Virus record (IMG/VR): IMGVR_UViG_3300031673_000019
Location: 6,958-70,957 of that record
DNA length: 64,000 nucleotides
Source: a virus
Strand: one strand, 5' to 3'
This document shows positions 11,201-55,699 of this stretch, piece by piece. Within the stretch, counting starts at the first letter, position 1, and the number at the start of each line of letters is the position of its first letter. The notes under the pieces were generated by a model that did not search any database, had not been told where the DNA came from, and worked only from the letters and a program-made list of their open reading frames with translations. The translations under genes were made by a program, and so were the position numbers.

Positions 11201-11212
11201 TACGTTGAGGCC

Positions 11213-11926: not shown

Positions 11927-11936
11927 GAGGTGACTG

Positions 11937-12322: not shown

Positions 12323-12365
12323 AGCCATATCGAACGTAATATCTCCAGGAGTCTTCACCTGGAGC

Positions 12366-20136: not shown

Positions 20137-20522
20137 TGGCCGGATCACGTATACGAAGCATTGCGTTCCCTTTCCGCAAGGGCACCTTGGCGTTTCCGAA
20201 GCAGTCGGAGAACGCTGAGGCCATTCGTGGGTCGGTGATTCAGATCATCACAACCAACAAGGGCGAGCGCGTGATGCGTCCAGACTTTGGATGCAATGCT
20301 TTCTCGTTCGTCTTTGAGCCGAACTCTGAAGACTTTCGGGGTGACGTGGAGCGAGAAGTGAGGCGATCCCTTGCTCGATGGGAGCGCCGTATCCGCGTTG
20401 ACTCGGTCACGGTTGCACCGGAGAACAATGTGACGGAGCCAGGGCAGATTATCATCTCTATATCCTATACGATCGTCACGACTGGCGAGGTCGACTCAAC
20501 GACCATTGCGGGGGGTGTCTGA
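20136..20522 (+). CDS. baseplate wedge gp25/GPW-like
   Basis: IITTNKGERVMRPDFGC, WERRIRV. Confidence 0.93.
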   Translation: MAGSRIRSIAFPFRKGTLAFPKQSENAEAIRGSVIQIITTNKGERVMRPDFGCNAFSFVFEPNSEDFRGDVEREVRRSLARWERRIRVDSVTVAPENNVTEPGQIIISISYTIVTTGEVDSTTIAGGV

Positions 20523-22681
20523 TGGCCTCGACGATTACGCGGGTTCGGTACGCAGGACTTGACTTCAATACACACGAAGACGAGCTGCTTGCTCGGCTTC
20601 AGGTCAAGTTCGCGTCCGTCTACAACGATTTTGCGGCATCGTCGCTGGGCATCATGCTCGTCGACATCTTTTCGTTCGGGCTTGACACGCTTTCGTTCTA
20701 TTTAGATCGCCGTGCTACGGACAACTTCCTTACGACGTCCAGGACGCTATCGTCCGCGGCCCGCGCAGCCCGTCAGCTTGGGTATAAACCAGGTACGGCG
20801 AGCGCATCGAGCGTGGACATGGAAGTGAGTCTTGGTGAGGCGTACTCCTTCACTGTGACGCTTCCGGCTGGGTTTCAATTCTTGGGCCCCAACGGGCTGA
20901 TCTTCGAGGCCCAAGAATCTGCGACGTGGCTTGCAGGAGACACGTCAACAAAAACCGTGCTTGCATCTGAGGGGCAAACGTTGACGGCCGTATTCTTCTC
21001 CAACGGAGAGGCAAATCAATCGTTCGACGTCAGCAACGTGCCCGCTTCTAAGTTTATCGTCGGCCCGGGGACGGAGAATGTCTCCCAGGTGACAGTGACG
21101 GTTGGCGGCGATGCCTGGGAGGAGAACGAGTTTCTTCAGTTCGGCGCCACGAACCAATTCGAGATGGGCTACAGCGATAGCCCCCCGACGGTTTCGTTTG
21201 GCGATGGCATTGCGGGCAACATCCCCGAGAGCGGCACAGAGATCTCGGTAACCTACTTTGCGTCGTCCGGCGTATTGGGTACGGCTACGGCGGGGACAAT
21301 CACATCGGCTGTTAGCCAGCTAGTCGTCGGCTTTGATGTGATTGACCTTGTGATCAACAATCCACAGGGCGCAAGCGGTGGCGCTGATCCAGAGACAATC
21401 AACAGCATCAAGGCGAACGCTCCAGGGTTCTTCCGCAGCCGCGGCGTGAACGTCACCTTGGACGACTACAAGGCGAGGGCCCAGTCGTTTGTAGACCCCG
21501 TCCTTGGGTCTATCGCGGTGGCGCGAGCTATCAACGTTCGTGGTTCGTCCGACGATGCGTTTTTGAATTCGAACATCGCAACGATACAGGCGTTGTCGAG
21601 CAGCTTCGTGACGGCGTCGGATGCCGGGGTTGCGGGGGTTGAAGTAGCCCTTGATTCGATCGACGCCTCGGTTGCCGCAGCCATCGTCGACGACACGGCC
21701 CTCGCGACAGACCTAGTCACGATTGCCGACGAGGAAGTGACTGTTCGCGCGTCGAGCGAAGATATCCGCACGGCCGCCAACATCATTTCGGTCAACTCTA
21801 CAGGGGTTTCGTCGTCGCTGTCGTCGCTGACTTCGGTAGTCAGCGGCTATCCGGTTGCGGGGACGACTCAGATCACGTCAGCGGACTTGAATACACTGCT
21901 GAATGCGATCAATAGAGCCACGGCACAAAACAACGAGATATCGACGCAGGCCGCGACAATATCTTCTGAGGTGACTACGATCACGTCATCGCTTGATGAG
22001 ATCGACGCGAACGCGGACTCTGCGGAGACGCGTCGCGCCGGCATACGCGTGGACATCGACTCGATCTCGGCGAACAGCACCATCGCGAGAACTGCTGTAG
22101 TTACGCTTGGTTCCGACATTTCGAGCATCGACAACAGTATCAGCACAAATCTGTCGGAAATCGACGAGCACGTGGACGGATTCCTGTCTTCGGAGTGTCA
22201 GGCGAACCTGATCGAGGTGCCGGTGTTGGCGTTGGACTCTGAGGGGTTCTATGTTGTGCCGTCCAACGGCTTGCAGAGGAGCTTGCAACGCTACTTGGAC
22301 GCAGCGAAGGAAGTGACGCAGGTTGTTCGTGTCGTGGGTGCATCCAACCTGCTGGTGGCGGCTGATATTACCGTCACGGTAGGCGTTCTTACGGGATACA
22401 ACGAGGCGTCGCTCCGGTCTCAGGTAGAGGCGGAGATCCTAGGAGTGCTCCGGGGGCGCAGGTTCGATGCGGACCTACGGCTATCTGATCTGTATGCGCC
22501 CATCGCGCCGGAGCCGGACCGGATTACCATCGAAGGTGTTGAGTGGGTCATCATCAAAATCGTTGGCCCGTCCGACAGGATTGATTCCGACGGCAACCTT
22601 CCGGTCAGCCAGTACGAGGTCGTCACACGTGGAACGATCACCGTCACGTCGACTGTCGTAACCGAATCGAACTTCAACTAG
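20522..22681 (+). CDS. baseplate J / gp6-like wedge with helical insert
   Basis: GLDF, RQLGYKP, FGDGIAGNIP, GGADPETINSIKANAP, VTLDDYKA. Confidence 0.92.
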   Translation: MASTITRVRYAGLDFNTHEDELLARLQVKFASVYNDFAASSLGIMLVDIFSFGLDTLSFYLDRRATDNFLTTSRTLSSAARAARQLGYKPGTASASSVDMEVSLGEAYSFTVTLPAGFQFLGPNGLIFEAQESATWLAGDTSTKTVLASEGQTLTAVFFSNGEANQSFDVSNVPASKFIVGPGTENVSQVTVTVGGDAWEENEFLQFGATNQFEMGYSDSPPTVSFGDGIAGNIPESGTEISVTYFASSGVLGTATAGTITSAVSQLVVGFDVIDLVINNPQGASGGADPETINSIKANAPGFFRSRGVNVTLDDYKARAQSFVDPVLGSIAVARAINVRGSSDDAFLNSNIATIQALSSSFVTASDAGVAGVEVALDSIDASVAAAIVDDTALATDLVTIADEEVTVRASSEDIRTAANIISVNSTGVSSSLSSLTSVVSGYPVAGTTQITSADLNTLLNAINRATAQNNEISTQAATISSEVTTITSSLDEIDANADSAETRRAGIRVDIDSISANSTIARTAVVTLGSDISSIDNSISTNLSEIDEHVDGFLSSECQANLIEVPVLALDSEGFYVVPSNGLQRSLQRYLDAAKEVTQVVRVVGASNLLVAADITVTVGVLTGYNEASLRSQVEAEILGVLRGRRFDADLRLSDLYAPIAPEPDRITIEGVEWVIIKIVGPSDRIDSDGNLPVSQYEVVTRGTITVTSTVVTESNFN

Positions 22682-34354: not shown

Positions 34355-34684
34355 GTGGCCGAAGTTCTCAAGGTGTTGGGGCAACTTGACCCCGTGGCGA
34401 CAACGTTGACAGCGCTTTATACGGTGCCTGGAGCGACGTCCGTGACAGCCTCGACTGTCGCCATCTGCAATCGCACTAGCTCCAATAAGCGCGCGCGCGT
34501 TTCGATCGCCGTGGCAGGCGCGTCCGATTCGCTTGAGCAATACATCTACTATGACGTGCTTGTGCTCAAGAACGACACCATCTTCGCGACCATCGGTGTT
34601 ACGCTGGCGGCGACGGATGTGGTGCGTGTTTACACGGATGCCGTGGGGCTGTCTTTCAGCCTGTTCGGGGTTGAGGTGAGCTGA
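34355..34684 (+). CDS. small virion beta-sandwich protein
   Basis: KVLGQ..TLTALYTVP..ICN..VTLAATDVVRVY..SFSLFGVE pattern seen in many phage virion proteins. Confidence 0.75.
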   Translation: MAEVLKVLGQLDPVATTLTALYTVPGATSVTASTVAICNRTSSNKRARVSIAVAGASDSLEQYIYYDVLVLKNDTIFATIGVTLAATDVVRVYTDAVGLSFSLFGVEVS

Positions 34685-35835
34685 TGAGCGCTACCAAGGC
34701 TCTGCAGGGCGTGGTCCTTCTTGATGCTGATGGCAACGAGATCACGCTTGACGATGGCGCTACTATCGGCTCCGCTGAAGGGGTCATCATCGCCGGGCAG
34801 GACGGTGCTGTGGCCCGCTTTGTGCGTGTCGCTGATGATGGCACGGTCCGCATTGATCCGACAGGCACGACCACGCAGCCCGTTGGGCTCCGAGACGTTG
34901 AGCATGGACAGTCCGCTCAATTCTCGGTTTTCGGGCTTCAGAAATTCGCGCAGGAATCCCTCCTTGCCGATCTAAGGTTTGATAAACAGGCCCTGGTAGA
35001 AGACTGGGACATCACACGCGTGAACGGTGGCAACTACCAGCCCGAGATCGGCGGTGTTGGCATCAAGCTGTTCACGAAGGCGCAGATCGGTAGCAGGGTC
35101 GAGTTCGTTAGCAGGAGAAAATTTCGCTACCAGTCCGGCCGCGGAATGCTTCTGAAGATGTCAATCGTGCTCGGCGATGCAGGGGTCGCCGGGAATGTTA
35201 GACAGTGGGGCTTCAAAAACACCAACGGCGACGCGCTCTACCTTGAGATGAACGGAACGACGCTCCAGTTCGTGCACAACCGAAACGGGAGCAACGTTTC
35301 AACAACCGCTGCATCCGCATTTGATACACCCGTGACGGCCGATGCCAACGGCCACATCTGGTTTATTCAGTACCCGTGGCTCGGGGTGGCAGACATCTTC
35401 GTCCTGTACGACAACGCAGTCGTTCACCGAAGCGTGTACATCGGGACGTCGCAAGAGTTTTCGCTCGGCGATCCCGACATGCATGTGTTTCTCTCGGTGG
35501 AGAACGTTTCAAACGCAACCAGCGTTTTCATGAAGTCGGGCTGTGCGTCCGTAGTTATTGAGGGCGGCAATCTTGTTGCAGGACTTGTTAGCGGCGAAGG
35601 GGACGGCGTCGTCCGTAATATCTCCGTCAACAATGCTGGGGCAATCTCCACTGTAATCCGGGATAGTGACACCCACCAGAGCCCGGAGGTGTACCGGGAC
35701 AACCGTTCCGAACTGTCCATTCGAGACGACATTTCACACGATCTCCTGCGCAGCATCTTTCGTGAGATAAAGACTTTGCGAATTCAGATGGGGCATGCGA
35801 CAGAGGTCGATTTTGACGGCGAGGACGACCAATGA
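34684..35835 (+). CDS. virion structural/fibre protein
   Basis: 383 aa, beta-rich, coupled start. Confidence 0.7.
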   Translation: MSATKALQGVVLLDADGNEITLDDGATIGSAEGVIIAGQDGAVARFVRVADDGTVRIDPTGTTTQPVGLRDVEHGQSAQFSVFGLQKFAQESLLADLRFDKQALVEDWDITRVNGGNYQPEIGGVGIKLFTKAQIGSRVEFVSRRKFRYQSGRGMLLKMSIVLGDAGVAGNVRQWGFKNTNGDALYLEMNGTTLQFVHNRNGSNVSTTAASAFDTPVTADANGHIWFIQYPWLGVADIFVLYDNAVVHRSVYIGTSQEFSLGDPDMHVFLSVENVSNATSVFMKSGCASVVIEGGNLVAGLVSGEGDGVVRNISVNNAGAISTVIRDSDTHQSPEVYRDNRSELSIRDDISHDLLRSIFREIKTLRIQMGHATEVDFDGEDDQ

Positions 35836-38224: not shown

Positions 38225-38418
38225 GTCCTGATGCTGTCATGGTCATGATGGTTGTGTTGGCCGTCGTGATCATCGCTGCCGACGTTGCCCTGGCGATGGA
38301 TAGGCGGCGCGGGAATACGTATTCCGAGATCTTGCGCGCAGCCGGGGCAAGGTGGAAGCCTCTAATTTTTATGATCATTTTCGGGATGGGTCTGCTCACG
38401 GGCCATTGGTGGTGGTAG
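38221..38418 (+). CDS. two-TM small membrane protein, holin-like
   Basis: Two hydrophobic segments separated by a basic loop, 65 aa. Confidence 0.55.
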   Translation: MSPDAVMVMMVVLAVVIIAADVALAMDRRRGNTYSEILRAAGARWKPLIFMIIFGMGLLTGHWWW

Positions 38419-38464
38419 TTCTGGATCGGGCTGTGGCTAAAAGTTTCGGCTAAGCTGGCATTGA

Positions 38465-40066
38465 ATGTATAGTGCCGGCAGAGTGCTTGTATCCGTAAAA
38501 ATAGCGAACACAGGCAGGCGGACGATTCAAAGGTCGGGAGGTGTCGAGCTTCCGCCTCCGTTCCATCTGCTCGTAATTTCTCCGGGGCAGTCCGCGGAGA
38601 TGGTTTGTACCAAAGGTCAGATCGAAGAGCGGTGGCCTCATGATTCTGGGTTTCGCGTAGCTGACCTACTTCAGCAGCTTGTCCAGTGCGGCATGATTAC
38701 GATTGATATCTCTCCCTACAGCGACACTATTCTGCCAGTGGGAGCGGTTGATGTTGATTTGGCTAAGACGATCGGTCAAGATGCGCCCGGCTCGCTATAT
38801 AATGAGTCGGGCGAAGGAGATGTGATGGGACCTAAGGACGACTTTCCTGATTTCTTGGATCCGCTGTACAACGCGCCTGCAGAGAAGAAATCGCCCAGCC
38901 GAAAGCCTGTGCGCAGCGAAGAGCCTGTGGAGAGGGCGCCGTCGGACCCTCTCTCGACCGGAGTCGACCTTCCCGACCCTGGGGAGCTTCCGTATGCGTC
39001 TAAGAAGAAGGACGACCAGAAGGATAAGTTCGATTCCGCGGTGAAGATGGCGTTCGTAGGAGCAGGCCAGGGCGGAGGCAGGATTGCCCAGTCGTTTTAC
39101 GACATGGGCTATCGACGCGTGTGCTGTGTGAACACGACCCAGCAGGACCTGTCGTCGCTTTCGATCGAGAACAAGCTGGTGATTGGTCACGATCGCGGCG
39201 GGGCAGGCAAGGACCCTGAGCAGGGCCGCCTTGCCGCCAAGGAGTCGTTCGAAGACATCATGGATTTGCTGATGCGATCCTGGGGTCAGGGCGTCGAGCA
39301 AATGTGGGTGTGCGTGGGCGCGGGGGGCGGCTCGGGCACAGGGAGCTGGCCCGTGCTGGTAAAGGCGATGAAGGAATTCGGCGATTCCACGAATGTGGAA
39401 AAGCCCATCGAGAAGCATCTTGGCATCATTATGACGATGCCAAAGAGGAGTGAGGGGTCGCGCGTTCAGAAGAACGCTCTCACTGCATTGCAGCAGGCCG
39501 TGGAGCTGGTTGAGGCGAAGAAGATTAGCTCGCTCGTCATTGTGGACAATGCGAAAATCCACGAGCTGTACCCTGGCCTGCCTGTGAAGAAGTTCTGGGG
39601 TGCTGCTAATCAGAACTTTGCAGCGATCCTCCACACGTTCAACCTGCTTGCAGCGCAAGACAGTCCATACAACACCTTCGACAAGGCCGATTTTCGGTCT
39701 GTGATTCGTAATGGGATCATGATCTTCGGCATGGCCCGCGTCCAAGACTGGGAGCACAAGGAAGACGTCAGTATGGCGGTGCGCCAAAACCTTGCCGGGT
39801 CGCTGCTCGCTGATGGGTTCGACTTGTCCAAGGCCAACATGGCAGGAGCAATCGTCGTGGCGCACGACGATGTGCTCGAAGAAGTCCCGATGGAGAACAT
39901 TGACTACGCCTTCAACAGCCTGGGCCGTGCGCTAGGCAATGAAGGGGTCACTCTGCATAGCGGTATTTACGAATGGAACAAGCCGGGGATGATGGTCTTT
40001 ACTATCGTGAGCGGCTTGCAGCCTCCGCAGACGCGTTTCGACGAACTTGAGCGGCTAGCAACGTAA
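38465..40066 (+). CDS. tubulin/FtsZ-family GTPase with N-terminal virion-type domain and Pro-rich linker (likely start GTG38483)
   Basis: FVGAGQGGGRIA, CVNT, GAGKDPEQG, GAGGGSGTG signature, VDN, NTFDKAD T7-like loop. Confidence 0.92.
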   Translation: MYSAGRVLVSVKIANTGRRTIQRSGGVELPPPFHLLVISPGQSAEMVCTKGQIEERWPHDSGFRVADLLQQLVQCGMITIDISPYSDTILPVGAVDVDLAKTIGQDAPGSLYNESGEGDVMGPKDDFPDFLDPLYNAPAEKKSPSRKPVRSEEPVERAPSDPLSTGVDLPDPGELPYASKKKDDQKDKFDSAVKMAFVGAGQGGGRIAQSFYDMGYRRVCCVNTTQQDLSSLSIENKLVIGHDRGGAGKDPEQGRLAAKESFEDIMDLLMRSWGQGVEQMWVCVGAGGGSGTGSWPVLVKAMKEFGDSTNVEKPIEKHLGIIMTMPKRSEGSRVQKNALTALQQAVELVEAKKISSLVIVDNAKIHELYPGLPVKKFWGAANQNFAAILHTFNLLAAQDSPYNTFDKADFRSVIRNGIMIFGMARVQDWEHKEDVSMAVRQNLAGSLLADGFDLSKANMAGAIVVAHDDVLEEVPMENIDYAFNSLGRALGNEGVTLHSGIYEWNKPGMMVFTIVSGLQPPQTRFDELERLAT

Positions 40067-40080: not shown

Positions 40081-40308
40081 ATGGATAGGTCTGTCATTGA
40101 GAGGCTTGTCGGCTCCGTGGACGGAGCTAACGTGAACTTCGAGACGAAGTACGAGTATCAGCCGGGTAGCGTTCGCGTATTCATCAATGGGATCGTGGCT
40201 CGCCAGAACGACGCCGACGGATGGACGGAGGTCGGCTTCAAACGTATTCGTTTGGATGAGGCACCCGGAGACGGCGAAGTAGTCTCAGCGTACTATGTAG
40301 CTGTCTAG
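40081..40308 (+). CDS. single YxNG-type domain virion protein
   Basis: GSVDGANVNF..GSVRVFING..LDEAP. Confidence 0.7.
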   Translation: MDRSVIERLVGSVDGANVNFETKYEYQPGSVRVFINGIVARQNDADGWTEVGFKRIRLDEAPGDGEVVSAYYVAV

Positions 40309-40842: not shown

Positions 40843-43383
40843 TTGCCAGGCTTTGGTTCAGGACCCTTTGGTAAGGGGGCCTTCGGCGAGTGGCCGTGGG
40901 CTTCTGAGTCGATCGTCGACGGCATCCCTGCGGTCTACAAGGAACAAGACGAAGGGGCTGGCAACGGTACCCTGAGTGCACTGCTTGAGGGTCTCGTCCC
41001 GTCACTTGAGTCACTGCGGCGCAAGATTCGCGACTACGATATCCTGCGAAACCCGCTGCTCGCCCCTGTCGACACGTCCTTCCAAACGACACAGTCGATT
41101 TTAAGAAGCGAGAACCTGGGCGACGGAACGTCGCGCGTCTTCTTGAGCGCAGGCTCCGACGGAGATAACCTGGACGGCCTCCGCGTAGGGATGGTGCTCA
41201 TCGATTCCCGCGGGTATCGATTCACTATTTGTTCCGTGGCAACGTCGACCTTGGCCGCCGACGTTGACGACCCGCCGGTGGATCCGGCGACGGGCGCCCT
41301 GACAGGGCGATACGTCATTGTCAATAATATCGGCCAGGTAAGCACAGAATTCATCCCGTTCGTATCGGGGACAATCGTCGAGGACGAAGATCCTCTGGCT
41401 GGTGCGTTCCCGAACAGCCCAAACGACATTGACGATGGCGCAGAGCCCCCGCCCTACATCTTCAACGTGGAAGGTTCGTACCTTAGCGGCGACGACATCG
41501 CGTTGAACCGGGTCACGGTCACGTGGGAGGAAGGTGGCGACCCAAAGACCGGGTTTTTTGTCAATACCGGTAACCCTGGCGGAGATCTGGCGGACACTAG
41601 CGAAATCAACTATGACGTAGCCTCTACGGCGACAGGGCAGATCGTTCTATATACGGCGTCAGGTGCGACGATTGATGCGGACACGATTCGCGTCTCGTAC
41701 ACGAGGTCGGGCGGGGCCCTTGTTGAGGATGCCGAGGTTCGCGCGCAGAACATTTTGGCATTCCTTGCTGCCGACCGAGCGATTTCGCTAGACCTGAATG
41801 ACCCAGAAGTCTACCAGCGCTCGTTCACAAACAGCGCTTTCAAGATATGGGAGATCAAAGGCACCGCGAACGGCTATCGCTACATGGGCGAGCTGGGCGG
41901 CTATTTTGTTGAAGCAATCCCCCTGTACGCGATCCCGTCGTCGCTAGCAGTCACGCTCGACCCTGCCACGGTCATCGCGAACCCAGAAGGCGAGTACGCC
42001 TCCGGGTCGATTGCGGCAGTGCCCGTAGCGTCGCTGGTTGACGGCGAAACGTTTACGCTAAGCGATGGAGAGAATCCTCCTGTCACGTTTGAGTTCGACA
42101 CAGCTCCCATCTCAGTGACCGCCGGGAATGTCTCTGTGGACATCAGCGCGGCAACCACAGCGTCCGATGTTGGTTCCGCGATGGCAACGGCCATCAACGG
42201 GGCGACGTTTCTGAATCTTGCCGCGGTGGGCGGTAGCACTGTCACGGTCACGAATACAGTCGAAGGCGTCGTCGGCAATGTTACGGACTGGAGCGATACG
42301 GTTTCTGACCCGAACTTTATGATCAGCCAGCCTACCGGCGGAATAGACCCGGTCTGGTTTACGATCATTGCTCCGACGCGGCTGCTGTTCGACGAGGTGA
42401 TCGCCGACATCATTCCTCTCGACACGTTGTGCTCCGAAGACACGTACCCCGGCGCGGTTCAAACGATCACCGTAACGGAGGTCGTTGCCGGCCAGGACCG
42501 AGGCAGCGAGACGGGATACACACTGACCGTGTCGACGGCGGAGATGTACTTGTCTTTCGGCACGTTTGGCGAGCTGACCGACGCGAACGCGAACCTCTTT
42601 GACGTTCTTTCGTACACGCGCCTTACGGCATCGACGTTTGAGGTGGAAGTTGCATCGTCGCAAACGCCCGTCGTGGGAGCAGGGTCGATCGACTGGAGGG
42701 TCCTGCGGTTTACCGCTCCGAATACGGTGACCATTACGGGCATCGGAACGGACGTGGAGGATCTTGGTCGCCAGACGGTGGGGTATTCGGGCCGGCGTTA
42801 CCGTGTCACAAAGACATTCACCGATCCTCCGTTGGCCAGCATCGGCAACTGGCTTTTTATCGACGCAGATGGCGTCGCGTCGTACATCGAGCGGTTTGAG
42901 AACATTCCGTTGACGTCCGACTACGAGATTGAATTCGTGTCAGAAACTGTTCCGGCGGCAGGAACGGCGAATGTCTATGCAAGCTGCTCTCTGCAACCTA
43001 GCTGTGATTTCTGTGCGGCAAGCTCTGTGATCATTCGTGTTGTAGCTACAGCGATCAACGGGTACCCGGAAGCTATTGATTCTGGGTCGTTCGATCGGAT
43101 CAGCGGCCGGGTGCTGCGCATGGTTCCAGGCCATGTAAAGCCGATCATTCTGGGTATCGTCGACCCGCCAGAGCTTCTGTCGATTACGCCTGGGGACGGG
43201 ACGAATACGCTGACATGGACAGACGTGGATGGCGCGGTGTCATACAACGTGTACTGGGATACGTCGCCAGACGTGTCTCCCTCTACTTCAAACAAGATTA
43301 CTGGGGTGGTCTCTCCTTATCTGCACGGCGGTTTAACAAATGGTGTCACGTACTACTACGTCGTCGTGGCAGTGGGGATCTGA
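40843..43383 (+). CDS. baseplate wedge P2-gpI/gp7-like with inserted domains and C-terminal FN3
   Basis: LAFLAADRAISLD..IWEIKGTANG, MVPGHVK motif; FN3 LTW..GAVSYNVYW..LTNGVTYYYVV. Confidence 0.75.
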   Translation: MPGFGSGPFGKGAFGEWPWASESIVDGIPAVYKEQDEGAGNGTLSALLEGLVPSLESLRRKIRDYDILRNPLLAPVDTSFQTTQSILRSENLGDGTSRVFLSAGSDGDNLDGLRVGMVLIDSRGYRFTICSVATSTLAADVDDPPVDPATGALTGRYVIVNNIGQVSTEFIPFVSGTIVEDEDPLAGAFPNSPNDIDDGAEPPPYIFNVEGSYLSGDDIALNRVTVTWEEGGDPKTGFFVNTGNPGGDLADTSEINYDVASTATGQIVLYTASGATIDADTIRVSYTRSGGALVEDAEVRAQNILAFLAADRAISLDLNDPEVYQRSFTNSAFKIWEIKGTANGYRYMGELGGYFVEAIPLYAIPSSLAVTLDPATVIANPEGEYASGSIAAVPVASLVDGETFTLSDGENPPVTFEFDTAPISVTAGNVSVDISAATTASDVGSAMATAINGATFLNLAAVGGSTVTVTNTVEGVVGNVTDWSDTVSDPNFMISQPTGGIDPVWFTIIAPTRLLFDEVIADIIPLDTLCSEDTYPGAVQTITVTEVVAGQDRGSETGYTLTVSTAEMYLSFGTFGELTDANANLFDVLSYTRLTASTFEVEVASSQTPVVGAGSIDWRVLRFTAPNTVTITGIGTDVEDLGRQTVGYSGRRYRVTKTFTDPPLASIGNWLFIDADGVASYIERFENIPLTSDYEIEFVSETVPAAGTANVYASCSLQPSCDFCAASSVIIRVVATAINGYPEAIDSGSFDRISGRVLRMVPGHVKPIILGIVDPPELLSITPGDGTNTLTWTDVDGAVSYNVYWDTSPDVSPSTSNKITGVVSPYLHGGLTNGVTYYYVVVAVGI

Positions 43384-45866
43384 TGTCATACGAGAGCTTT
43401 CCAAGCAATGAACTTGATGGAGCACCGGAGTCGGGGCTCGACACGCCTGTTCTCTCGATTGCGGGGCAGGGGGATGGCTACATTGACCTTTCCTGGGGCG
43501 CCGTCGCGGGCGCCGCAAGGTATTGCGTCTTCTACTCGTTCACTCCAGGAGTCACGACAGACGCCGCGTCGCTGGCGTCTCTGAGCCTTGTCCTCAACCC
43601 TGGATCGGGTTCTAACCTTAGAATTGCTGACATAGATCAGACTGGCCTTGATATTACGTCTAATATCACGGTCGAGTGCTGGGTCAAGTTTGTTGGCGAT
43701 ATCTTCAATGACGATATCGACTTGGTTGCGAAAAATTCAGTCGTTTCGTCAGGTAGCTACGCCTTTCAGTTCCTGTACGGAGGAGGTGTACCGTCTCTGT
43801 CGTTTGCTTTGAGCGATGATGGAACGACGTTTGTGGATGTCACGAGGGCGTGGTCGCCGGTGGCAGACACCTGGTACCATCTCGCCGCGACCTGGAACAG
43901 CTCGCCTGACAGGGCGCGGATCTACGTAGACGGCGTACAGCTAGGGGCCGACGAGGTCCTTGGAATTGCTTCTGTCTTTGATGGGACCTCCGACTTCAAG
44001 ATTGGCCTCGGCGGTGCCGGCGTGTACACGTTCTATCTTGACGACGTGAGGGTTTGGGACGTCGAGCGTACGGCTGGTGAGATCTCTTCCAACCGCAGCG
44101 TTCAGCTAGACCCTGCCTCCGAGGCTGACCTGCAAGGTTACTACACGATGAGCGTCGTCGGGCGTGACGCGACGGCTAACGGCAATCATCTCTCCGAAGT
44201 TGGCTCGATTGCCTATGATGGCGATGTTCCGTTTGAGATCACTGGCACGTCGTTCAGGCACCTTGGCCTAGAGAGCGGCGCGCAGGTCTATTACATCATG
44301 GTGGCCAGGACGGCGGCAGCCGGGCGGTGCGGCTTTGGGGCAGGCACCGGCGTCTCTGCGGCCAGCGACGAAGAGAGCGGAGTTGCGCTAGGGGCTCCGA
44401 CGTTGTCTGTGGCGGCCGGGGATGGCGAGAACGTTGTGACATTCACTTTTGTGGCTGGCGCAACCTCTTACAATCTTTACTTTGGGGCGTCTGGGGCAGG
44501 CCTTGGTGGAACTAAGATTACAGGCGCCACGACGCCGTACACGCATACGGGCCTCACGAATGGAGTAGAGGTTTGCTATGTGGCGACGGCGGTTGTCGGC
44601 GGATCCGAGTCCGATGCATCGAACGAAGACTGCGGCACCCCGGCGGCCGTTGGGGGTACGGAAGATATTGTTTTGCTAATGGGCGGAGTTGTTGGCACCA
44701 ACGAAGTGAACATGGCCGCTCTGTATGATACCGGCGCAGGGACCTGGACGTCGGGGGTCAATATGCCCATCGGCAGGGACGGCGCGTTCATATGCAAGCC
44801 GGAATCAGAGTATGCATTCTATATAGCGGGGGAGACACTGTCTGCCATTCAAAGCACTGGTTATTTCTATAACCATGACCTGGATGTGTACGGGGCTATC
44901 CCAGCTTTCCCGGAAGTGCGTAACGCTGCGTCCGCGATTCATGTTCCTGGCAGCGTTCACCCAAGCGGGACCGATCGTTTCTTTATTATGCTGGGAGCGG
45001 ACGCCCTGGGCACCGGCGGCGCGACGAATACATCCTATGTGATTGATCCGAATTCGGGATATGCATCGTCGGCATTGGCTGTGTTCCCTTATGCGAATGG
45101 GTACCGTAGTGCCTGGGTTGGCTTAACGTCCAAGACGACCGATGGGAATCCGAAGCTCGTGATTATCTCAGGTGAGATCAGTAGCTCAGATCCGAACTAC
45201 CCTTCGTGCACAGGTGACGGCGAGGACAAGGTGTTTATTTACGATATAACAACCGACACCTGGAGCCAGGGCGCTGATATATCAGGGTTCACCACTGGCG
45301 GTGGAGTTTGTGCGTTTGACAGCACGTTAGATGGTCATTCGATGATCGTCATGGATGACGGAAGGATATTGACGGTCGGAGGAAAGTGGGAAAGCACCAC
45401 GCCTTCGTTTGGTGCATTGGCAGACTGCTTGATATATGACGCGGAGCTTGACACGTGGACAGCCACTGGTCCGCTGTCGGCGCCAAGGATGAGTGCATCT
45501 GTTTTGAGGTTGGCGAATGGAAAAATCATGGCCGTTGGCGGGCAGAATACCGCCAATACTTCAGTGGCGACGTGTGAGCTGTACGATCAGGCGCTCGGCA
45601 CATGGACCACAGCCGCACCAATGTCGATTGCAAGGGAAGCTCCTTTTGCAATTTTGCTGTCGAGTGGAAAAGTTCTCGTGGCTGGCGGGAAGACGGGGGG
45701 ATCGACGGCGACGAGCACGTGCGAGATATACGATCCTGACTTGGACACGTGGACTGCCACAGGCGCCCTGCCGACGGCGGCGGATCGCGGTGACGCAGAC
45801 ATCAGATCCGGCGTGCCAATGGGTGGCGGCGGGATGAATGGTCTTATGATTGTAGATACTTACTAG
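43383..45866 (+). CDS. receptor-binding protein: FN3-LamG-FN3-Kelch propeller
   Basis: ITVECWVK..WYHLAATWN..IYVDG..DDVRVW (LamG); repeated GKVLVAGG..CEIYDP..TWTATG (Kelch). Confidence 0.85.
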   Translation: MSYESFPSNELDGAPESGLDTPVLSIAGQGDGYIDLSWGAVAGAARYCVFYSFTPGVTTDAASLASLSLVLNPGSGSNLRIADIDQTGLDITSNITVECWVKFVGDIFNDDIDLVAKNSVVSSGSYAFQFLYGGGVPSLSFALSDDGTTFVDVTRAWSPVADTWYHLAATWNSSPDRARIYVDGVQLGADEVLGIASVFDGTSDFKIGLGGAGVYTFYLDDVRVWDVERTAGEISSNRSVQLDPASEADLQGYYTMSVVGRDATANGNHLSEVGSIAYDGDVPFEITGTSFRHLGLESGAQVYYIMVARTAAAGRCGFGAGTGVSAASDEESGVALGAPTLSVAAGDGENVVTFTFVAGATSYNLYFGASGAGLGGTKITGATTPYTHTGLTNGVEVCYVATAVVGGSESDASNEDCGTPAAVGGTEDIVLLMGGVVGTNEVNMAALYDTGAGTWTSGVNMPIGRDGAFICKPESEYAFYIAGETLSAIQSTGYFYNHDLDVYGAIPAFPEVRNAASAIHVPGSVHPSGTDRFFIMLGADALGTGGATNTSYVIDPNSGYASSALAVFPYANGYRSAWVGLTSKTTDGNPKLVIISGEISSSDPNYPSCTGDGEDKVFIYDITTDTWSQGADISGFTTGGGVCAFDSTLDGHSMIVMDDGRILTVGGKWESTTPSFGALADCLIYDAELDTWTATGPLSAPRMSASVLRLANGKIMAVGGQNTANTSVATCELYDQALGTWTTAAPMSIAREAPFAILLSSGKVLVAGGKTGGSTATSTCEIYDPDLDTWTATGALPTAADRGDADIRSGVPMGGGGMNGLMIVDTY

Positions 45867-45900: not shown

Positions 45901-48321
45901 ATGCCGGTCGATCAGCAAGCCCTTGACTCCTCTGCCATTGCCACGAGATGGAAGGAGCCGTACGTCTCGGCGTCCGTCAATCACCGTGGTGTCGGCATCC
46001 TTGCGCCGGGAATCTATCGGGGGCTAAAGCTCGCGGAAGACGGCGGCGCAGGAGATCGCACTGTCATCGTAGAGGACGATGCGGACTACGGCGACCACGT
46101 TGCCGGGTACGAGACGAGCGATGGGTACTTCATCCACTATCGCGATGCCTCAGCTGGCAACATTACCCTGACCCTGACGGATTATTCCAGCCAGACGGTC
46201 GTCGTAGCGATTTACATTGAGTACGCAATCGGTTCAGATACGACGGGCGTCTTCCGTACGTACACGGTTGCCGAATTTGATGCGCTCTCTGCTTCAGCAC
46301 GAGGAGAGCTGGTCGTTCTTGGGACAGTCGTCGTCCCGGCGTCTGGTGCGATTGTGGCGGCGAGTATCACGGCTGACCGGAGAACATCCGCGTCGGCCAA
46401 TCGCCAGCGTGGCACGGTTCAGGCCGCTCCTATTGTACGAAACCCGAGCTTTGAATTCGGCGTATCAGGAGATGCATACGAGCATTCTTCGCTGTTTTGG
46501 AGGAAAAAGTCTACGCTTGGTACTGGCACGTGGACTACGACCACGGCGACTGCGAATGTGGGCGCCAAGTCAGTTCTGCTCAGCGTAGCGTCGGGCCCGT
46601 TCTCAGGAGAGCTGATCCAGTCGATAGGCGCAGCGACGCGCGAGGGAGAATCCCTTATCTGCCAGCTGTTCGTCCGTCAGGTGCAAACGATATCCTCAGG
46701 CTCGATTGAAGCGTTCGTGGAGTTTGCTGACGCTGACGGGCGTGCGATGACGAGATCTACGGTTACGCTTGACGGAGGCGCAGCCGATGGGTCATTCCGT
46801 GAAGTTAGCTTTACGCTTACGGCCCCAGCGACAGCTACGTCTATTCGCACGCTAGGCATTCAGGCCGTATCCTTGGATCCGACGGCGCCGGGCGATGTTA
46901 TATACATCGATGATTTTACGGCGTTGATCGACGTCGAGGATACCAGGCTCTATAATCCGTATGATCAAAACTGGCGTCAGCCTGTCAACGTTGAATCGAT
47001 CGTGCTGCAGCAGCAGGACGACACAGAGTGGAACGATAATACGGCTTTAATCGAGTATGATGGTGCATCGCCGAGCACAGAAGGATCTGTAAAAATTGGA
47101 TCGGGGTCTTCGTCGCTGCCGCCGGCTCTTGCGATTTTCGGCAGAATTCTTGGTATTGGTTCCGGCCTGTCGGACAGTTTGTCCAATGGGCTGAAGCCAC
47201 GCATCCAGGCGGATGCTGCTACGACGTATACCGAGTACACGCCCATGTACACGATGGACGTGGCAGGGCAGGGGTCGGGACGCATCTACTCCCGCGACGA
47301 TGGGTCCCTCGTCATGACCGTAAACGCTCGGTGGGATGGCTCGATTTGGAACCAAGACGTTGCAGATGACTCCTCGCGACTTGATCTGAAAACCTCCGGC
47401 GTCGAAGTTCTTTTGAAAACGTCGACAGCAAGCTGGGCGGATGGGGCGTGGACATCAACGGCGGTCAGCGTAGGCACCGATGCTACGACATTGACAGACT
47501 TGATCGTGACCAGCCTGGGCGGGTCACGGATTAGCTCAGATGTCGAGTCACTCCAGCCGCGCCTTGAGGGGCCCGTCCGAGCCCTTGGCACCGAAGATGA
47601 CTACACGCTGATCTGGCGGTTCGGCACACCCAGCCTGAAGCAGTTCCGAATGTTCGTGAGCCCCACGGGGCGAATGTTCGGCACAGTCAACGCCGTCTAT
47701 GACGGCACCGATTGGACCAAGGACGTCAACGGCGAAGAGGCTATTGCCTTGGAGATGAGCGGCGGCGCCACGGCTGCAGCTACGATTTACATCCAAGAGA
47801 CAGGCACGGACACATGGTCCGACGGCGCATGGTCCGACACGGTTGCTTCGTTTGACGTCGGATCTCGATATAAGACGATCCCGCTATTCGCCGGGCGGGA
47901 TGACGGTGCAGACTGGGGCCTTGTTGTAAGCGCAACAGCTCCAGGAATTTATTGGTCAACAAATACAGGATCTGGAAGCTCCCTCTTCATACCCATACCT
48001 GTAGAATCGGGGGAGGTTATTGAATCTGTTACGGCGATAGTCGACAACCACATCGCCGGGACCAGCGGCGCCATGACTCTAGACATGGAGGTCCTCCAGT
48101 ACGCCCACGGCGTAACGGCGGCGACGGTGACATCGTTTGGCACGGACTCGATAGTGGATCTCGCAGACACTTTTGCTATCATTGCGTCCGTCAACTTGTC
48201 TTCGCATGTCGCGAGTGCAGTGAGCAACTCTTACTACATGCGTCTTGCTACTGGAGCAGGCGCCGCCGAGCGACGGGTTTCTGCGGCTTTCTACAAGTAC
48301 AAGAAACCATCCTGGAGCTAG
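45901..48321 (+). CDS. tail fibre/baseplate-attached protein with CBM-like domain
   Basis: RWKEPY..GIYRG N-terminal motif; IVRNPSFE carbohydrate-binding-module-like start. Confidence 0.75.
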   Translation: MPVDQQALDSSAIATRWKEPYVSASVNHRGVGILAPGIYRGLKLAEDGGAGDRTVIVEDDADYGDHVAGYETSDGYFIHYRDASAGNITLTLTDYSSQTVVVAIYIEYAIGSDTTGVFRTYTVAEFDALSASARGELVVLGTVVVPASGAIVAASITADRRTSASANRQRGTVQAAPIVRNPSFEFGVSGDAYEHSSLFWRKKSTLGTGTWTTTTATANVGAKSVLLSVASGPFSGELIQSIGAATREGESLICQLFVRQVQTISSGSIEAFVEFADADGRAMTRSTVTLDGGAADGSFREVSFTLTAPATATSIRTLGIQAVSLDPTAPGDVIYIDDFTALIDVEDTRLYNPYDQNWRQPVNVESIVLQQQDDTEWNDNTALIEYDGASPSTEGSVKIGSGSSSLPPALAIFGRILGIGSGLSDSLSNGLKPRIQADAATTYTEYTPMYTMDVAGQGSGRIYSRDDGSLVMTVNARWDGSIWNQDVADDSSRLDLKTSGVEVLLKTSTASWADGAWTSTAVSVGTDATTLTDLIVTSLGGSRISSDVESLQPRLEGPVRALGTEDDYTLIWRFGTPSLKQFRMFVSPTGRMFGTVNAVYDGTDWTKDVNGEEAIALEMSGGATAAATIYIQETGTDTWSDGAWSDTVASFDVGSRYKTIPLFAGRDDGADWGLVVSATAPGIYWSTNTGSGSSLFIPIPVESGEVIESVTAIVDNHIAGTSGAMTLDMEVLQYAHGVTAATVTSFGTDSIVDLADTFAIIASVNLSSHVASAVSNSYYMRLATGAGAAERRVSAAFYKYKKPSWS

Positions 48322-49767: not shown

Positions 49768-50058
49768 ATGCTTACGTTGAACATCACGAACACATCTGGC
49801 ACAGACATCGCTGCGGGCGACGGCGTTCTTCCCAGCGCATTGAGCTGGGTTGACCTGGCCGACACTGCCAACGTCGACGTTGTGATTCAGGTCGGAGACC
49901 TCGCGAGGGTCGAGACCAACCACTCGGGCTTTACGTTTGGAGAGCTTCTCCAGCAGCTCAAGCAGCGTGGCATCTGCACGTACAACGTCACCGACCTCGG
50001 CGACGACGAAGATGACGGCAGCGTGGCGGACCACGCCGTCGCAACCGCAGCGGCGTAG
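49768..50058 (+). CDS. small virion protein homologous to the N-terminus of the tubulin/FtsZ protein
   Basis: GGAGG SD; SGF...LLQQL.Q.G motif shared with 38465. Confidence 0.8.
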   Translation: MLTLNITNTSGTDIAAGDGVLPSALSWVDLADTANVDVVIQVGDLARVETNHSGFTFGELLQQLKQRGICTYNVTDLGDDEDDGSVADHAVATAAA

Positions 50059-52792: not shown

Positions 52793-53593
52793 ATGGCCGC
52801 TGTCAACTCACTGCTGAGCGCATTTCGCGGAGGGCTCAACCCGAAGCCCGCGCGCGCGTATATCATTCCCCTTGATATACATCACGGTGACGAGCCGATC
52901 TTAGCTGAGCGAAGATCGTTTCAGTATTTTCCTCAGTCTATTTCCGATCAGCGTGCAACGAACTATCAGGCGAAGGTCATCCCTGGGCTGAGCCATCCTT
53001 TGTATCAATGGACATCTTCGGGTGCGAGAACGATCTCGTTCCAGGCTGTCTTCTCTCGCGATCGCAGCTATACTAAGGCCGAGAACGATTCGATCGAGGC
53101 GGGGGTTACGTCTTTGAGCAACCTGGGCGGAGACGCCCGAGGCTCACTGGCTGCGCAGGCAGATTTCAGAAATAGGAACAATGGCGTTAATGGCTCTGGG
53201 TCTGAGTCGAGAAATGTTGATATTCCTAGCGCCATTGCATGGTTGCGGTCGTTCTTGGACCCCGAATATTCGTCTGATGGCCACTCTACCTACGGGACGT
53301 CGCCAGCGCGTCCGCGCCCGCCTCGCAAGATGATCCTTGGGTTCCCCAACGTTCGCATTAACTGGGGCGTGCCCGAGCTTAAAAAAGACGAAGTCTATTC
53401 GATCATGACTCAGTGCGACGTCAGCTACGAAGGGTTCTTTGCGAACGGGGCGCCAAGGTTTGCGCGTGTTGATCTGTCGTTCGCTGAAATCATCCAGATT
53501 GGTGGCGGGATCAGGGTTCATGACGCTCTCAATAAGAGGCGGGTTGCATATGCCGGGTACGGCCTAAACGACCAGAGCAACAAGGGTACCTGA
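52793..53593 (+). CDS. tube initiator / CIS-tube (gp48/gp54, P2 gpU-like) protein
   Basis: FQYFPQSISD..YQ..IPGLSHPLYQWTSSGARTISF; IMTQCDVSYE.F..G.PRFARVDLSFAE. Confidence 0.8.
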   Translation: MAAVNSLLSAFRGGLNPKPARAYIIPLDIHHGDEPILAERRSFQYFPQSISDQRATNYQAKVIPGLSHPLYQWTSSGARTISFQAVFSRDRSYTKAENDSIEAGVTSLSNLGGDARGSLAAQADFRNRNNGVNGSGSESRNVDIPSAIAWLRSFLDPEYSSDGHSTYGTSPARPRPPRKMILGFPNVRINWGVPELKKDEVYSIMTQCDVSYEGFFANGAPRFARVDLSFAEIIQIGGGIRVHDALNKRRVAYAGYGLNDQSNKGT

Positions 53594-54445: not shown

Positions 54446-55699
54446 ATGGCTGATTTTACGTGGAACAAGGGACAGCGCGAGGCTATCGATCGGATCAGGG
54501 GATGGGCGGATAAGACGGCGGAGGGGATGGAGCTGTCGTTGACGGGGCCGGCCGGATCGGGGAAGACCAGTCTGCTGAAGGCGATTGTCCCCTTCCTGTC
54601 TGGCCAGAAGGTTGCCTGGACGGCTATGACGGGGCGGGCCGCTGTTCGGCTTAGAGATCTGACGAGCGAGCCGGTATCCACGCTGCACAGCGTGCTGTAC
54701 GACAGGCCTCGCGAAGACAGGAAGGGCAAGCTCTGGTTTAACAGGGTCAAGCCTCCTGATTTCAAGTTCCTCGTGGTTGACGAGGCCTCGATGATGGGTC
54801 CCAAGATTTACAATGATCTGAGGGAGTTCATCATGCAGGGCGTGCGAATTCTTTTCGTTGGAGATGGGTATCAGCTCCCGCCTGTGCTCGACTATAAGGA
54901 GATTAAAGATCACGGAGAGGACTTTTCCGTGTTCCGTGAGGTTCCAGGCTGCGCACTCACCCAGGTGATGCGAAGCGACGATGGCATCATCAGGGTGGCG
55001 ACACAGCTTCGGTGCGAAAATCAGGTGCCGAAGAAGTGCATGGAAGGCTATTCGATCCGAAGGTCTAAGACGCCTGGCACCGAGGCGGTCGAAGAGTTCC
55101 TGATGGATAACGACGACCACTTCGTGATCACATGGAGGAATCGCCTTCGGATGCAGGCCAATCGCCTGGTCCGTAAGCGCCTGGGAATGGATGGGCTGTT
55201 GCCGAAGCCGGGGGAGCCGGTGATGATGTGTCGCAATGGTCAGAGCGACGGGTCGCCGCCGGAGTTCGTTCTAAACGGCGAAATTCATTGGGGTTCCGGG
55301 TGGGATCGTGGGCCGAGCCTTGGGCCTGAGGTGCAGACGCAGTGGTTCTATACGGACCATGGGATTCGCGTCCTGGTCAACACGCAGGGCAAGGATGAGC
55401 CGATGGATGGCTTCATGCCGCACGTGGAGGACTGGAAGAAGTACATGTCTGAGCGCCGAATCAGCCGGACGCCAGAGATCGTACCCATTACATATGGCTA
55501 CATTGGCACGGCGCACAAGGCCCAGGGCGACCAGTACCGCAAGGTTACGATCTTCCTCTCGCGTGAGGACTTAGCCAATGACAAGTTCCGCAAGGATACA
55601 TACTTGCCCGACGGGTCGACGATGTCGTTCGCTACCCGTTGGCTATATACTTCTTTAACTCGGGCACAAAAAGAGGTTACACTGATTTTGGGGTCGTAG
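54446..55699 (+). CDS. RecD/Dda-like SF1B ATP-dependent helicase
   Basis: GPAGSGKT, VVDEASM, FVGDGYQLPPV, LTQVMR, TAHKAQG, LYTSLTRAQ. Confidence 0.95.
   Translation: MADFTWNKGQREAIDRIRGWADKTAEGMELSLTGPAGSGKTSLLKAIVPFLSGQKVAWTAMTGRAAVRLRDLTSEPVSTLHSVLYDRPREDRKGKLWFNRVKPPDFKFLVVDEASMMGPKIYNDLREFIMQGVRILFVGDGYQLPPVLDYKEIKDHGEDFSVFREVPGCALTQVMRSDDGIIRVATQLRCENQVPKKCMEGYSIRRSKTPGTEAVEEFLMDNDDHFVITWRNRLRMQANRLVRKRLGMDGLLPKPGEPVMMCRNGQSDGSPPEFVLNGEIHWGSGWDRGPSLGPEVQTQWFYTDHGIRVLVNTQGKDEPMDGFMPHVEDWKKYMSERRISRTPEIVPITYGYIGTAHKAQGDQYRKVTIFLSREDLANDKFRKDTYLPDGSTMSFATRWLYTSLTRAQKEVTLILGS

What the first reader, a model, noticed from the sequence alone, without database searches (positions are those of the whole stretch)
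38465..40066. Tubulin/FtsZ GTPase fused to a virion-type anchor domain: a possible virion-tethered cytoskeletal system
Seen in sequence: an intact tubulin/FtsZ GTPase (GAGQGGG, GGGSGTG, D..D T7-like loop, no FtsZ C-terminal tail) in the middle of the structural cluster. Its first ~75 aa (VSVKIANT..I..SGGVELP..V..GQ..SGFRVADLLQQLVQCGM) align colinearly with the stand-alone 96-aa protein at 49768 (LTLNITNT..I..GDGVLP..V..GD..SGFTFGELLQQLKQRGI), followed by a ~110-aa Pro/charged linker. Established: phage tubulins such as PhuZ and TubZ are soluble spindle or partition proteins. Inference: here a decoration-like domain tethers the GTPase to capsids or tails so particles co-polymerise with filaments, engage host FtsZ to block division, or deliver it at infection.
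Basis: partly seen in the sequence, partly recalled or inferred. Interest (0 to 1): 0.93.

Follow-up and report, generated by a model that had tools for sequence, protein, structure and literature searches.

The report
Phage tubulin with added N-terminal domain
A large uncultured soil phage encodes an intact filament-type GTPase from a big, unstudied, apparently phage-only branch of the tubulin/FtsZ superfamily; in this sub-branch it has gained an extra small domain of unknown fold, copied from a separate phage gene, but nothing shows that this domain is a virion anchor.

Summary
ORF 38465-40066 is an intact 533-aa tubulin/FtsZ-superfamily GTPase inside the tail and fibre gene block of a large soil myovirus. 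Its first ~88 residues are homologous to the 96-aa ORF at 49768-50058, and a ~97-aa disordered linker follows.

The "virion-type anchor" reading is not supported. The N-domain folds confidently but matches no known fold or family, and the 96-aa family is equally unannotated.

The core belongs to a very large metagenomic phage family that is neither PhuZ, classical TubZ nor FtsZ. No cultured phage in the collection searched has it. Its gene repeatedly lies in virion-morphogenesis modules, and one distant clade has the order terminase, portal, tubulin. This scan reported the same family on other DNA (e1-3600453, e1-3754553).

New here:
- The family shares an N-terminal flexible tail with conserved acidic D-x-P-D/E short motifs.
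- The N-domain was gained in one subclade, and the free paralogue has so far been seen only in genomes of that subclade.
- All 23 fused forms keep a Met where unfused relatives start. In this window a GAAGGAG precedes it, so a long and a short isoform are likely.

Most likely it is a late-expressed GTP-driven filament whose N-terminal tail and added domain recruit partners. That function is inferred, not shown.

The parts
38465..40066 (+). Whole ORF, 533 aa: N-domain, disordered linker and tubulin/FtsZ-superfamily core
38486..38728 (+). N-domain (residues 8-88). Small alpha/beta domain with no known fold match. Conserved motifs LPPPFH (38549-38566) and SGF..DLLQQLxQ (38645-38686).
38729..38824 (+). 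Spacer between the N-domain and the conserved internal Met. It is hypervariable in length and sequence among fused homologues.
38813..38819 (+). GAAGGAG Shine-Dalgarno-like site, 5 nt before the internal ATG
   Evidence: duplex -8.8 kcal/mol; only 2.9% of internal in-frame ATGs of the window's genes reach this
38825..38827 (+). Internal in-frame ATG (Met121), at the position where unfused homologues start. Probable start of a 413-aa short isoform.
38837..38878 (+). Tail motif 1 (residues 125-138): D-D-F-P-D-F-L-D-P-L-Y-N-A-P. The DPLY part is conserved in fused and unfused close relatives.
38960..38980 (+). Tail motif 2 (residues 166-172): G-V-D-L-P-D-P. This is the family-wide N-terminal acidic D-x-P-D/E motif.
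39050..39571 (+). GTPase domain (residues 196-369) with T1 GAGQGGG (39059-39079) and T4 GGGSGTGS (39323-39346)
39671..39691 (+). T7 catalytic loop, N403-x-x-D406-x-x-D409
39638..40021 (+). TubZ-like C-terminal domain (residues 392-519). The last helix runs on to residue 532 and no tail follows.
49768..50058 (+). Stand-alone 96-aa paralogue of the N-domain, with a conserved C-terminal peptide GSVxDHAVATAA. It lies in a conserved block between the fibre-like genes and a tube-like gene.
40081..40308 (+). 75-aa gene that follows the tubulin gene in this window and in related phages (45-51% identity). Function unknown.

Best explanation
The gene encodes a polymerising GTPase of a large, uncharacterised, apparently phage-only clade of the tubulin/FtsZ superfamily. 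It is co-oriented with, and embedded in, the late (virion) genes of a large soil myovirus.

The nucleotide-binding loops and the T7 catalytic loop are intact, so it should form GTP-hydrolysing protofilaments. This is inferred from family knowledge.

The family has no C-terminal tail. Its hallmark is a disordered N-terminal tail carrying short acidic D-x-P-D/E motifs. By analogy with the terminal tails of FtsZ, TubZ and PhuZ, this tail is the likely partner- or neighbour-binding element. This is inferred.

In one subclade a copy of a free-standing ~95-aa phage gene was fused in front of the ancestral start. This is shown by paralogy, by clustering on the tree, and by the paralogue so far being seen only in genomes with the fused form.

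The ancestral Met is kept in all fused forms and here has a strong ribosome-binding site, while the annotated start has a weak one. The gene therefore probably makes a short 413-aa bulk subunit and a long 533-aa subunit. The long subunit would place the extra domain on a ~100-residue leash on the filament. This is inferred.

The extra domain most likely binds the same, still unknown, target as its free paralogue, or the paralogue itself. That would couple or regulate the attachment of some cargo to the filament during virion production.
For: Superfamily membership and intact motifs. The core is modelled at pLDDT about 98.

Family size and phage origin:
- 349+ hits, on contigs up to 298 kb.
- 207 clusters at 50% identity with E below 1e-30.
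- 49 IMG/VR loci.
- No relative found in 185,579 species genomes with the clade's patterns.

Late or structural context:
- This window.
- The order tubulin, 75 aa, ~152 aa, ~1130 aa is conserved in relatives.
- In 24-26 loci of a clade about 41-44% identical, the order is TerL, portal, tubulin.
- In L008/L014 a baseplate wedge gene lies directly upstream of the tubulin gene.

N-terminal tail motif: [DE][LIVMF]P[DEGA] occurs in 66 of 96 tails against 12.7 expected from shuffles, a median of 27 residues before strand S1. The tail is disordered.

Single-origin fusion: the 23 fused forms fall in one clade of 25 rows (SH-aLRT 95), with 2 unfused forms nested inside. The paralogue is present in G002, which has the fused form, and absent from G003, which has the unfused form and is 88% complete. 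It also appears on contigs of the same lengths as those carrying fused tubulins.

Internal start:
- Met is in the same alignment column in 19 of 23 fused forms and within 2-5 residues in the other 4.
- Unfused relatives begin at that position.
- Shine-Dalgarno duplex energies before the internal Met in 7 loci have a median of -5.9. True gene starts have -5.6 and other internal ATGs -3.2. This window scores -8.8, against -3.9 at the annotated start.
Against: - No experiment, transcript, peptide or virion proteome exists for any member.
- Polymerisation, the two isoforms and any binding partner are all inferred.
- The Met could be a relic of the fusion. Shine-Dalgarno-like sequences upstream are weak in 1-2 of 7 loci and partly follow from the Glu/Asp/Gly codons there.
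- The test of N-domain or core against the free paralogue gave no verdict.
- Gene neighbourhood is the only link to virion production.
- The paralogue co-occurrence rests on a handful of long contigs.
Confidence: 0.55

Rival explanations
1. Virion-tethered tubulin. The N-domain and its free paralogue bind capsid or tail surfaces, so filaments are attached to particles, or the GTPase is carried in the virion and delivered at infection.
For: Both genes lie inside the structural region. The wider family sits next to portal or baseplate genes in several lineages. The long flexible leash suits tethering.
Against: No fold or family match links the N-domain to any decoration, capsid or tail protein. 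Most family members, including those beside the portal, lack the domain. No virion proteome is available. Position in a late block shows timing at most, not virion incorporation.
Confidence: 0.12
2. Host-division hijack. The D-x-P-D/E-hydrophobic tail motifs imitate the conserved C-terminal peptide of host FtsZ. They would bind FtsA, ZipA or SepF-type anchors, putting the phage filament on the membrane or displacing host FtsZ to stop division.
For: The published consensus of that peptide is D/E-I/V-P-X-F/Y-L-R/K (bioRxiv 10.1101/2023.08.29.555414). 29 of 96 family tails hold [DE][IVL]P.[FYM], against 2.3 expected. As in FtsZ, the motif sits on a long disordered linker.
Against: - The motif is at the N-terminus.
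- The residues after the motif are acidic rather than L-R/K.
- In this protein neither copy (DFPDF, DLPDP) fits the stricter pattern.
- The host is unknown.
- No binding was tested.
- The resemblance may be chance between short acidic proline motifs.
Confidence: 0.13
3. The N-domain acts on the filament itself as a nucleating, bundling or auto-inhibitory module, for example by self-association. The free paralogue would be a soluble regulator that competes with it, and no external cargo would be involved.
For: The fused domain and its free paralogue occur together. The probable mix of long and short subunits would let a few long subunits cross-link or cap filaments. Two unfused forms nested in the fused clade show that the core works without the domain.
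Against: In the monomer model the domain does not dock on the core, and the linker has low confidence. The complex test gave no verdict. There is no direct evidence of self-association.
Confidence: 0.13
4. Type III (TubZRC-like) partition or PhuZ-like genome or nucleus positioning. The filament would move phage DNA or a replication compartment rather than serve virion production.
For: The closest solved folds are plasmid TubZ/RepX (Z 37.9 and 37.4) and CetZ2 (Z 36.0). Pfam finds TubZ-like_C. Related genomes run from about 190 kb to nearly 300 kb, the size range in which PhuZ systems occur.
Against: - No TubR-like gene and no iteron array lie near the gene.
- There is no C-terminal tail.
- PhuZ is only remotely similar: hhalign probability 82%, E 1e-5, and 14% identity in BFVD.
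- The phiKZ nuclear-shell protein finds nothing in five related records, one of them 91% complete. This is a weak negative.
- The gene sits in structural operons, not among early genes.
Confidence: 0.07

Closest known systems
TubZ / RepX of Bacillus plasmids (pBtoxis, pXO1-like) and TubZ of Clostridium phage c-st (type III partition)
   Same: Best structural matches: 4ei7 Z 37.9 (rmsd 2.3, 329 aligned) and 2xka Z 37.4; c-st TubZ Z 32.6. The Pfam TubZ-like C-terminal domain is present. The G-box and T7 loop are intact.
   Different: Identity is only about 20%. No TubR adaptor gene or tubC repeats lie nearby. There is no flexible C-terminal tail; an N-terminal tail carries the motifs instead. 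The gene lies in virion-gene blocks of lytic-type large phages.
CetZ (archaeal cell-shape tubulin homologues, 4b45/4b46/3zid)
   Same: Fold similarity nearly equal to TubZ: Z 36.0, 34.4 and 32.3 at 20-24% identity.
   Different: CetZ is a chromosomal archaeal protein. This family is viral and has a different N-terminal architecture.
FtsZ (TIGR00065), including its disordered linker plus conserved terminal peptide
   Same: Best sequence-profile matches among solved structures are archaeal FtsZ, E 2.5e-21. The catalytic motif N-x-D-x-x-D is the same. Both use a short conserved peptide on a long disordered linker.
   Different: The score is 95 bits against an equivalog cut-off of 295. The linker and peptide are at the N-terminus, not the C-terminus. 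The motif only partly fits D/E-I/V-P-X-F/Y-L-R/K. The protein is phage-encoded.
PhuZ of nucleus-forming jumbo phages (phiKZ gp039, 201phi2-1)
   Same: A tubulin-superfamily protein encoded by a large or jumbo phage, plausibly serving intracellular organisation of infection.
   Different: Only remote similarity, and PhuZ is not among the top 50 structural rows. No nuclear-shell homologue was detected. There is no acidic C-terminal tail. The gene context is late or structural.
The uncharacterised 'portal-adjacent' phage tubulin family noted earlier in this scan (e1-3600453, e1-3754553); UniProt A0A6J5RW92 'FtsZ cell division GTPase [uncultured Caudovirales phage]'
   Same: Same wider family. A0A6J5RW92 is the top BFVD hit (E 7e-37, 29% identity). 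I found the TerL, portal, tubulin order independently here.
   Different: This subclade has the added N-domain, a free paralogue, a second tail motif (DPLY) and a probable internal start. Here the gene lies in the tail and fibre block rather than beside the portal.

Membership tests
Tubulin/FtsZ superfamily | Glycine-rich nucleotide-binding loops (T1, and T4 GGGTG[ST]G-type) in a Rossmann-like GTPase domain | tested here: met
   PF00091 E 9.8e-15. GAGQGGG at 199-205 and GGGSGTGS at 287-294. The glycines are invariant in 96 sequences.
Tubulin/FtsZ superfamily | T7 'synergy' loop N-x-D-x-x-D/E that completes the neighbouring subunit's active site in a protofilament | tested here: met
   N403-T-F-D406-K-A-D409. 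D406 is invariant and D409 nearly invariant. Polymerisation itself cannot be tested with these tools.
FtsZ (cell-division orthologue) | Reaches the curated equivalog score of TIGR00065 | tested here: not met
   95 bits against a cut-off of 295.2
FtsZ (cell-division orthologue) | C-terminal disordered linker ending in the conserved peptide D/E-I/V-P-X-F/Y-L-R/K | tested here: not met
   The protein ends right after its last helix. Similar but imperfect motifs lie in the N-terminal tail instead.
TubZ (type III partition) | TubZ-type fold with extended C-terminal helix | tested here: met
   PF22453 E 3.1e-6, above its cut-off. Z 37.9 to 4ei7 and 37.4 to 2xka, with the alignment running to residue 533.
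TubZ (type III partition) | Operon with the DNA-binding adaptor TubR and a centromere of repeats (tubC) | tested here: not met
   Neighbouring genes have no DNA-binding family hits. Only three short low-score tandem repeats occur in 34-44 kb, none beside the gene. The neighbours are virion genes.
TubZ (type III partition) | Flexible C-terminal tail that binds TubR | tested here: not met
   No residues lie beyond the terminal helix.
PhuZ (Chimalliviridae spindle tubulin) | Sequence or profile membership of the PhuZ family | tested here: not met
   hhalign against phiKZ PhuZ: probability 82%, E 1e-5, over the GTPase half only. BFVD PhuZ entries: 10-14% identity, E 5.6e-11 or worse.
PhuZ (Chimalliviridae spindle tubulin) | Co-occurrence with the nuclear-shell protein chimallin | tested here: inconclusive
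   phiKZ gp054 finds nothing in G000-G004, including a record that is 91% complete. A single divergent query is an insensitive test.
   Model pLDDT 85.7. Foldseek PDB best E 0.33. VIA-align against 48,161 chains, best Z 4.5. AlphaFold DB clusters best E 0.019, unnamed. The Atlas gives only unnamed small phage proteins.
   No cultured phage carries the family: INPHARED gave only 4 weak hits to unrelated FtsZ-like genes.

The most novel reading that the evidence does not exclude
One gene makes two tubulin subunits: an abundant short one that builds a GTP-driven filament, and a rarer long one that carries a novel-fold adaptor domain on a 100-residue leash. With the free paralogue of that domain and the family-wide N-terminal peptide motifs, this would form a phage cytoskeleton dedicated to virion assembly or trafficking. 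It would be physically coupled to portal, capsid or tail parts, in phages that have no PhuZ and no detectable phage nucleus.
Probability: 0.2. Interest if true: 0.85.

Novelty: new variant of a known kind. Interest (0 to 1): 0.58.

Why it matters
Only two kinds of phage tubulin have been studied: PhuZ, which positions the phage nucleus and carries capsids, and TubZ, which partitions prophage plasmids.

This family is far larger in metagenomes than either. It is absent from the cultured phages searched and is repeatedly wired into head or tail gene modules. That points to a third, unexplored use of tubulin-type filaments in virus production.

The subclade described here adds experimentally tractable handles:
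- a separable adaptor domain with a free paralogue;
- defined short motifs on a disordered N-terminal tail;
- a probable two-isoform design.

Each of these can be tested by expression, polymerisation assays and pull-downs without needing the unknown host.

Tried and rejected
- Complex prediction of the whole protein with the free 96-aa paralogue gave no verdict (score 0.00, controls not run). It is no evidence either way.
- Fold searches with the N-domain model gave no clear match in PDB (Foldseek), 48,161 representative chains (VIA-align) or AlphaFold DB clusters. Atlas look-alikes were only unnamed small phage proteins below lead level.
- A region-restricted search for the N-domain in other architectures returned only the nearest fused homologue, so other fusions are not excluded.
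- N-terminal extensions of ten more distant family members had no Pfam domain. Two apparent fusions (AAA lid, glycosyltransferase) may be gene-call artefacts.
- The phiKZ chimallin query found nothing.
- The scan of 185,579 species genomes with the close-clade patterns found no relative. The wider alignment was too diverse for that tool.
- No promoter or terminator signal above background lies around the gene. There are no tRNAs in the window, so no host clue.
- The literature searched describes PhuZ, TubZ and a phage G FtsZ-like gene, but not this family.
- One free-paralogue cluster is labelled as coming from a Planctomycetota MAG. I rejected this as host evidence, because the same cluster sits on a 118-kb phage-type contig.
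Full report
**What is there**

The window is part of a 76-kb IMG/VR virus record that CheckV rates as about 45% complete. All sizeable genes are on the + strand. They include a tail sheath (7179-10031), a tape measure (14108-17089), a baseplate wedge (20522-22681) and a virion structural protein (34684-35835). A LamG/Kelch fibre-like protein (43215-45866) and a Dda-type helicase (54446-55699) lie further on. Runs that hold the sequence are soil metagenomes.

ORF 38465-40066 is open and gives 533 aa. Pfam finds the Tubulin GTPase domain at residues 196-369 (E 9.8e-15) and the TubZ-like C-terminal domain at 392-519 (E 3.1e-6).
- GAGQGGG at 199-205;
- GGGSGTGS at 287-294;
- a T7 loop N403-x-x-D406-x-x-D409, whose aspartates are invariant or nearly so in 96 relatives.

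The protein ends directly after its last helix.

**The N-terminal part**

Residues 8-87 align with the 96-aa ORF 49768-50058 at 28% identity over 80 residues (pairwise E 1e-8). A joint profile finds 65 free-standing proteins of about 95 aa as well as the N-termini of fused tubulins. The two groups share N, LP, SGF and LLQQLxQ motifs. The free family has its own conserved C-terminal peptide, GSVxDHAVATAA.

Folded with this alignment, the domain is modelled confidently (pLDDT 85.7) as a small alpha/beta unit. In the full-length model the domain (1-88) and the core (180-533) are confident, while residues 90-172 have pLDDT below 50.

No library gives a clear fold match. No Pfam, PHROG or NCBIfam family matches the free protein. 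'Virion-type' or 'decoration-like' therefore has no support. The domain is simply unknown.

The fusion is not an assembly artefact. 23 fused homologues come from independent assemblies. A contig from another soil sample covers 38387-39862 without a difference or gap.

**The family**

The core has more than 349 relatives in the 90% clusters, on contigs of up to 298 kb. At the 50% level, 207 clusters score below E 1e-30. IMG/VR holds 49 loci.

The GenBank phage collection holds only four weak hits to unrelated FtsZ-like genes. A scan of 185,579 species genomes with the clade's patterns found nothing.

Comparison with known groups:
- By sequence profile, the nearest solved structures are archaeal FtsZ (E 2.5e-21), then RepX/TubZ.
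- By structure, the nearest are TubZ/RepX (Z 37.9 and 37.4) and CetZ2 (Z 36.0), with FtsZ around Z 30-32.
- FtsZ membership fails, at 95 bits against a cut-off of 295.
- PhuZ is remote.
- The top viral hit is an unstudied 'FtsZ' of an uncultured phage.

This scan met the same family before on other DNA and called it a new phage tubulin beside the portal (e1-3600453, e1-3754553). I reached the same picture independently. In 24-26 loci of a clade about 41-44% identical to this protein, the order is terminase large subunit, portal, tubulin. In L008/L014 the gene directly follows a baseplate wedge gene. In this clade the order tubulin, 75-aa gene, ~152-aa gene, ~1130-aa fibre-like gene is conserved. 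By contrast, phiKZ PhuZ lies among unnamed genes, with none of its annotated neighbours marked as structural.

**New points from this window**

1. The family has an N-terminal rather than a C-terminal tail. Close relatives without the N-domain still share the motifs D-[LI]-P-[DE]-x-x-DPLY and [VI]-D-[LI]-P-D before the GTPase domain. The second motif persists down to about 30% identity. The pattern [DE][LIVMF]P[DEGA] occurs in 66 of 96 tails against 12.7 expected from shuffles, a median of 27 residues before the first strand. It partly resembles the FtsZ C-terminal peptide consensus D/E-I/V-P-X-F/Y-L-R/K. In this protein neither copy fits the stricter pattern, so this is a lead, not a finding.

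2. The N-domain is a subclade novelty. On a quick maximum-likelihood tree of the cores, all 23 fused forms fall in one clade of 25 rows (SH-aLRT 95), with two unfused forms nested inside. That is compatible with one gain and one loss.

3. The free paralogue goes with the fused form. It is present in a 194-kb, 91%-complete record with a fused gene and absent from a 185-kb, 88%-complete record with an unfused gene. It is also reported on contigs of the same lengths as those carrying fused tubulins. Its gene block (101, 189, 130, paralogue, 191, 226, 70, 336 aa, then a tube-like 266-aa protein and the helicase) is syntenic between the window and that record.

4. There is a probable internal start. 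This was raised by another first-stage note on this window (e1-5355521) and tested here.
   - All 23 fused forms keep a Met at the border between the hypervariable spacer and the conserved tail. It is in the same column in 19 and within 2-5 residues in the other 4.
   - Unfused relatives begin exactly there.
   - In the window, Met121 (38825-38827) follows GAAGGAG by 5 nt.
   - Its anti-Shine-Dalgarno duplex energy is -8.8 kcal/mol. Only 2.9% of other internal ATGs in the window's genes reach this, and the annotated start scores -3.9.
   - Over seven loci the internal sites have a median of -5.9. This matches real gene starts (-5.6), not other internal ATGs (-3.2).

**How it most likely works**

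Shown:
- an intact tubulin-type GTPase;
- a disordered N-terminal tail with conserved short motifs;
- an added globular domain paralogous to a free protein;
- a conserved internal Met with a ribosome-binding site;
- recurrent placement among virion genes.

Inferred: the core polymerises with GTP. The tail motifs bind a partner or the neighbouring subunit, as the terminal tails of FtsZ, TubZ and PhuZ do (established knowledge of those families). The gene yields a short bulk subunit and a long subunit that displays the extra domain on a flexible leash. The filament serves a late step such as organising or moving virion parts.

I put about 0.55 on this package. The rivals are a true virion tether (0.12), a host-division hijack through FtsZ-peptide mimicry (0.13), a purely filament-regulating domain (0.13), and DNA or compartment positioning of the TubZ or PhuZ kind (0.07). 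For that last rival there is no TubR, no iterons, no C-terminal tail and no detectable shell protein.

**Limits**

There is no cultured member, no transcript or peptide evidence, and the host is unknown. The only binding test gave no verdict. The tree is the quick version, because the careful search did not finish. The co-occurrence of the paralogue rests on few long contigs.

**Verdict**

What remains of value is a new architectural variant of an unstudied phage tubulin family, with specific, cheap experiments attached.

Noticed in passing
L005:10001-12622 and L013 (about 10000-12660); proteins P0018, P0030, P0032, P0037, P0081, P0115, P0188: Several homologues carry a ~340-aa insert exactly inside the T7 catalytic loop, between the residues equivalent to N403 and T404. 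The insert starts with Cys and ends with Gly-Asn before Thr, which looks like an intein, although Pfam does not recognise it. A more distant member (P0197) has a recognised LAGLIDADG intein at another site in the GTPase domain.
   Followed up: partly
window 40081-40308: A 75-aa gene directly follows the tubulin gene and is kept next to it in related phages (45-51% identity). It has only a weak sub-threshold hit to the T7 tail-fibre N-terminal domain.
   Followed up: partly
L037:6126-11095, and the same order in 24-26 other IMG/VR loci (L016-L053): In a clade about 41-44% identical to this protein, the tubulin gene is the gene immediately after terminase large subunit and portal.
   Followed up: partly
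window 52793-53593: A 266-aa protein with a contractile-injection-system tube domain (E 1.8e-6, just above the Pfam cut-off) lies far from the sheath gene, after the fibre-like genes and just before the Dda-type helicase.
   Followed up: no
window 43215-45866 and 40843-43383: The 883-aa protein has a LamG (concanavalin-like) domain and Kelch repeats, a receptor-binding-type architecture. Its ORF overlaps the end of the preceding 846-aa ORF by about 170 nt, and another first-stage note proposes a frameshift there.
   Followed up: no
L063:540-6836 (G002) against window 45901-48321: The 806-aa fibre-like protein of the window has three tandem paralogous copies in the related 194-kb phage (30-42% identity).
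   Followed up: no
window 38795-39865, minus strand: A 356-aa antisense open frame lies wholly inside the tubulin gene. Given the strong conservation of the + strand protein and the 56-58% G+C, it is most likely a spurious frame.
   Followed up: no
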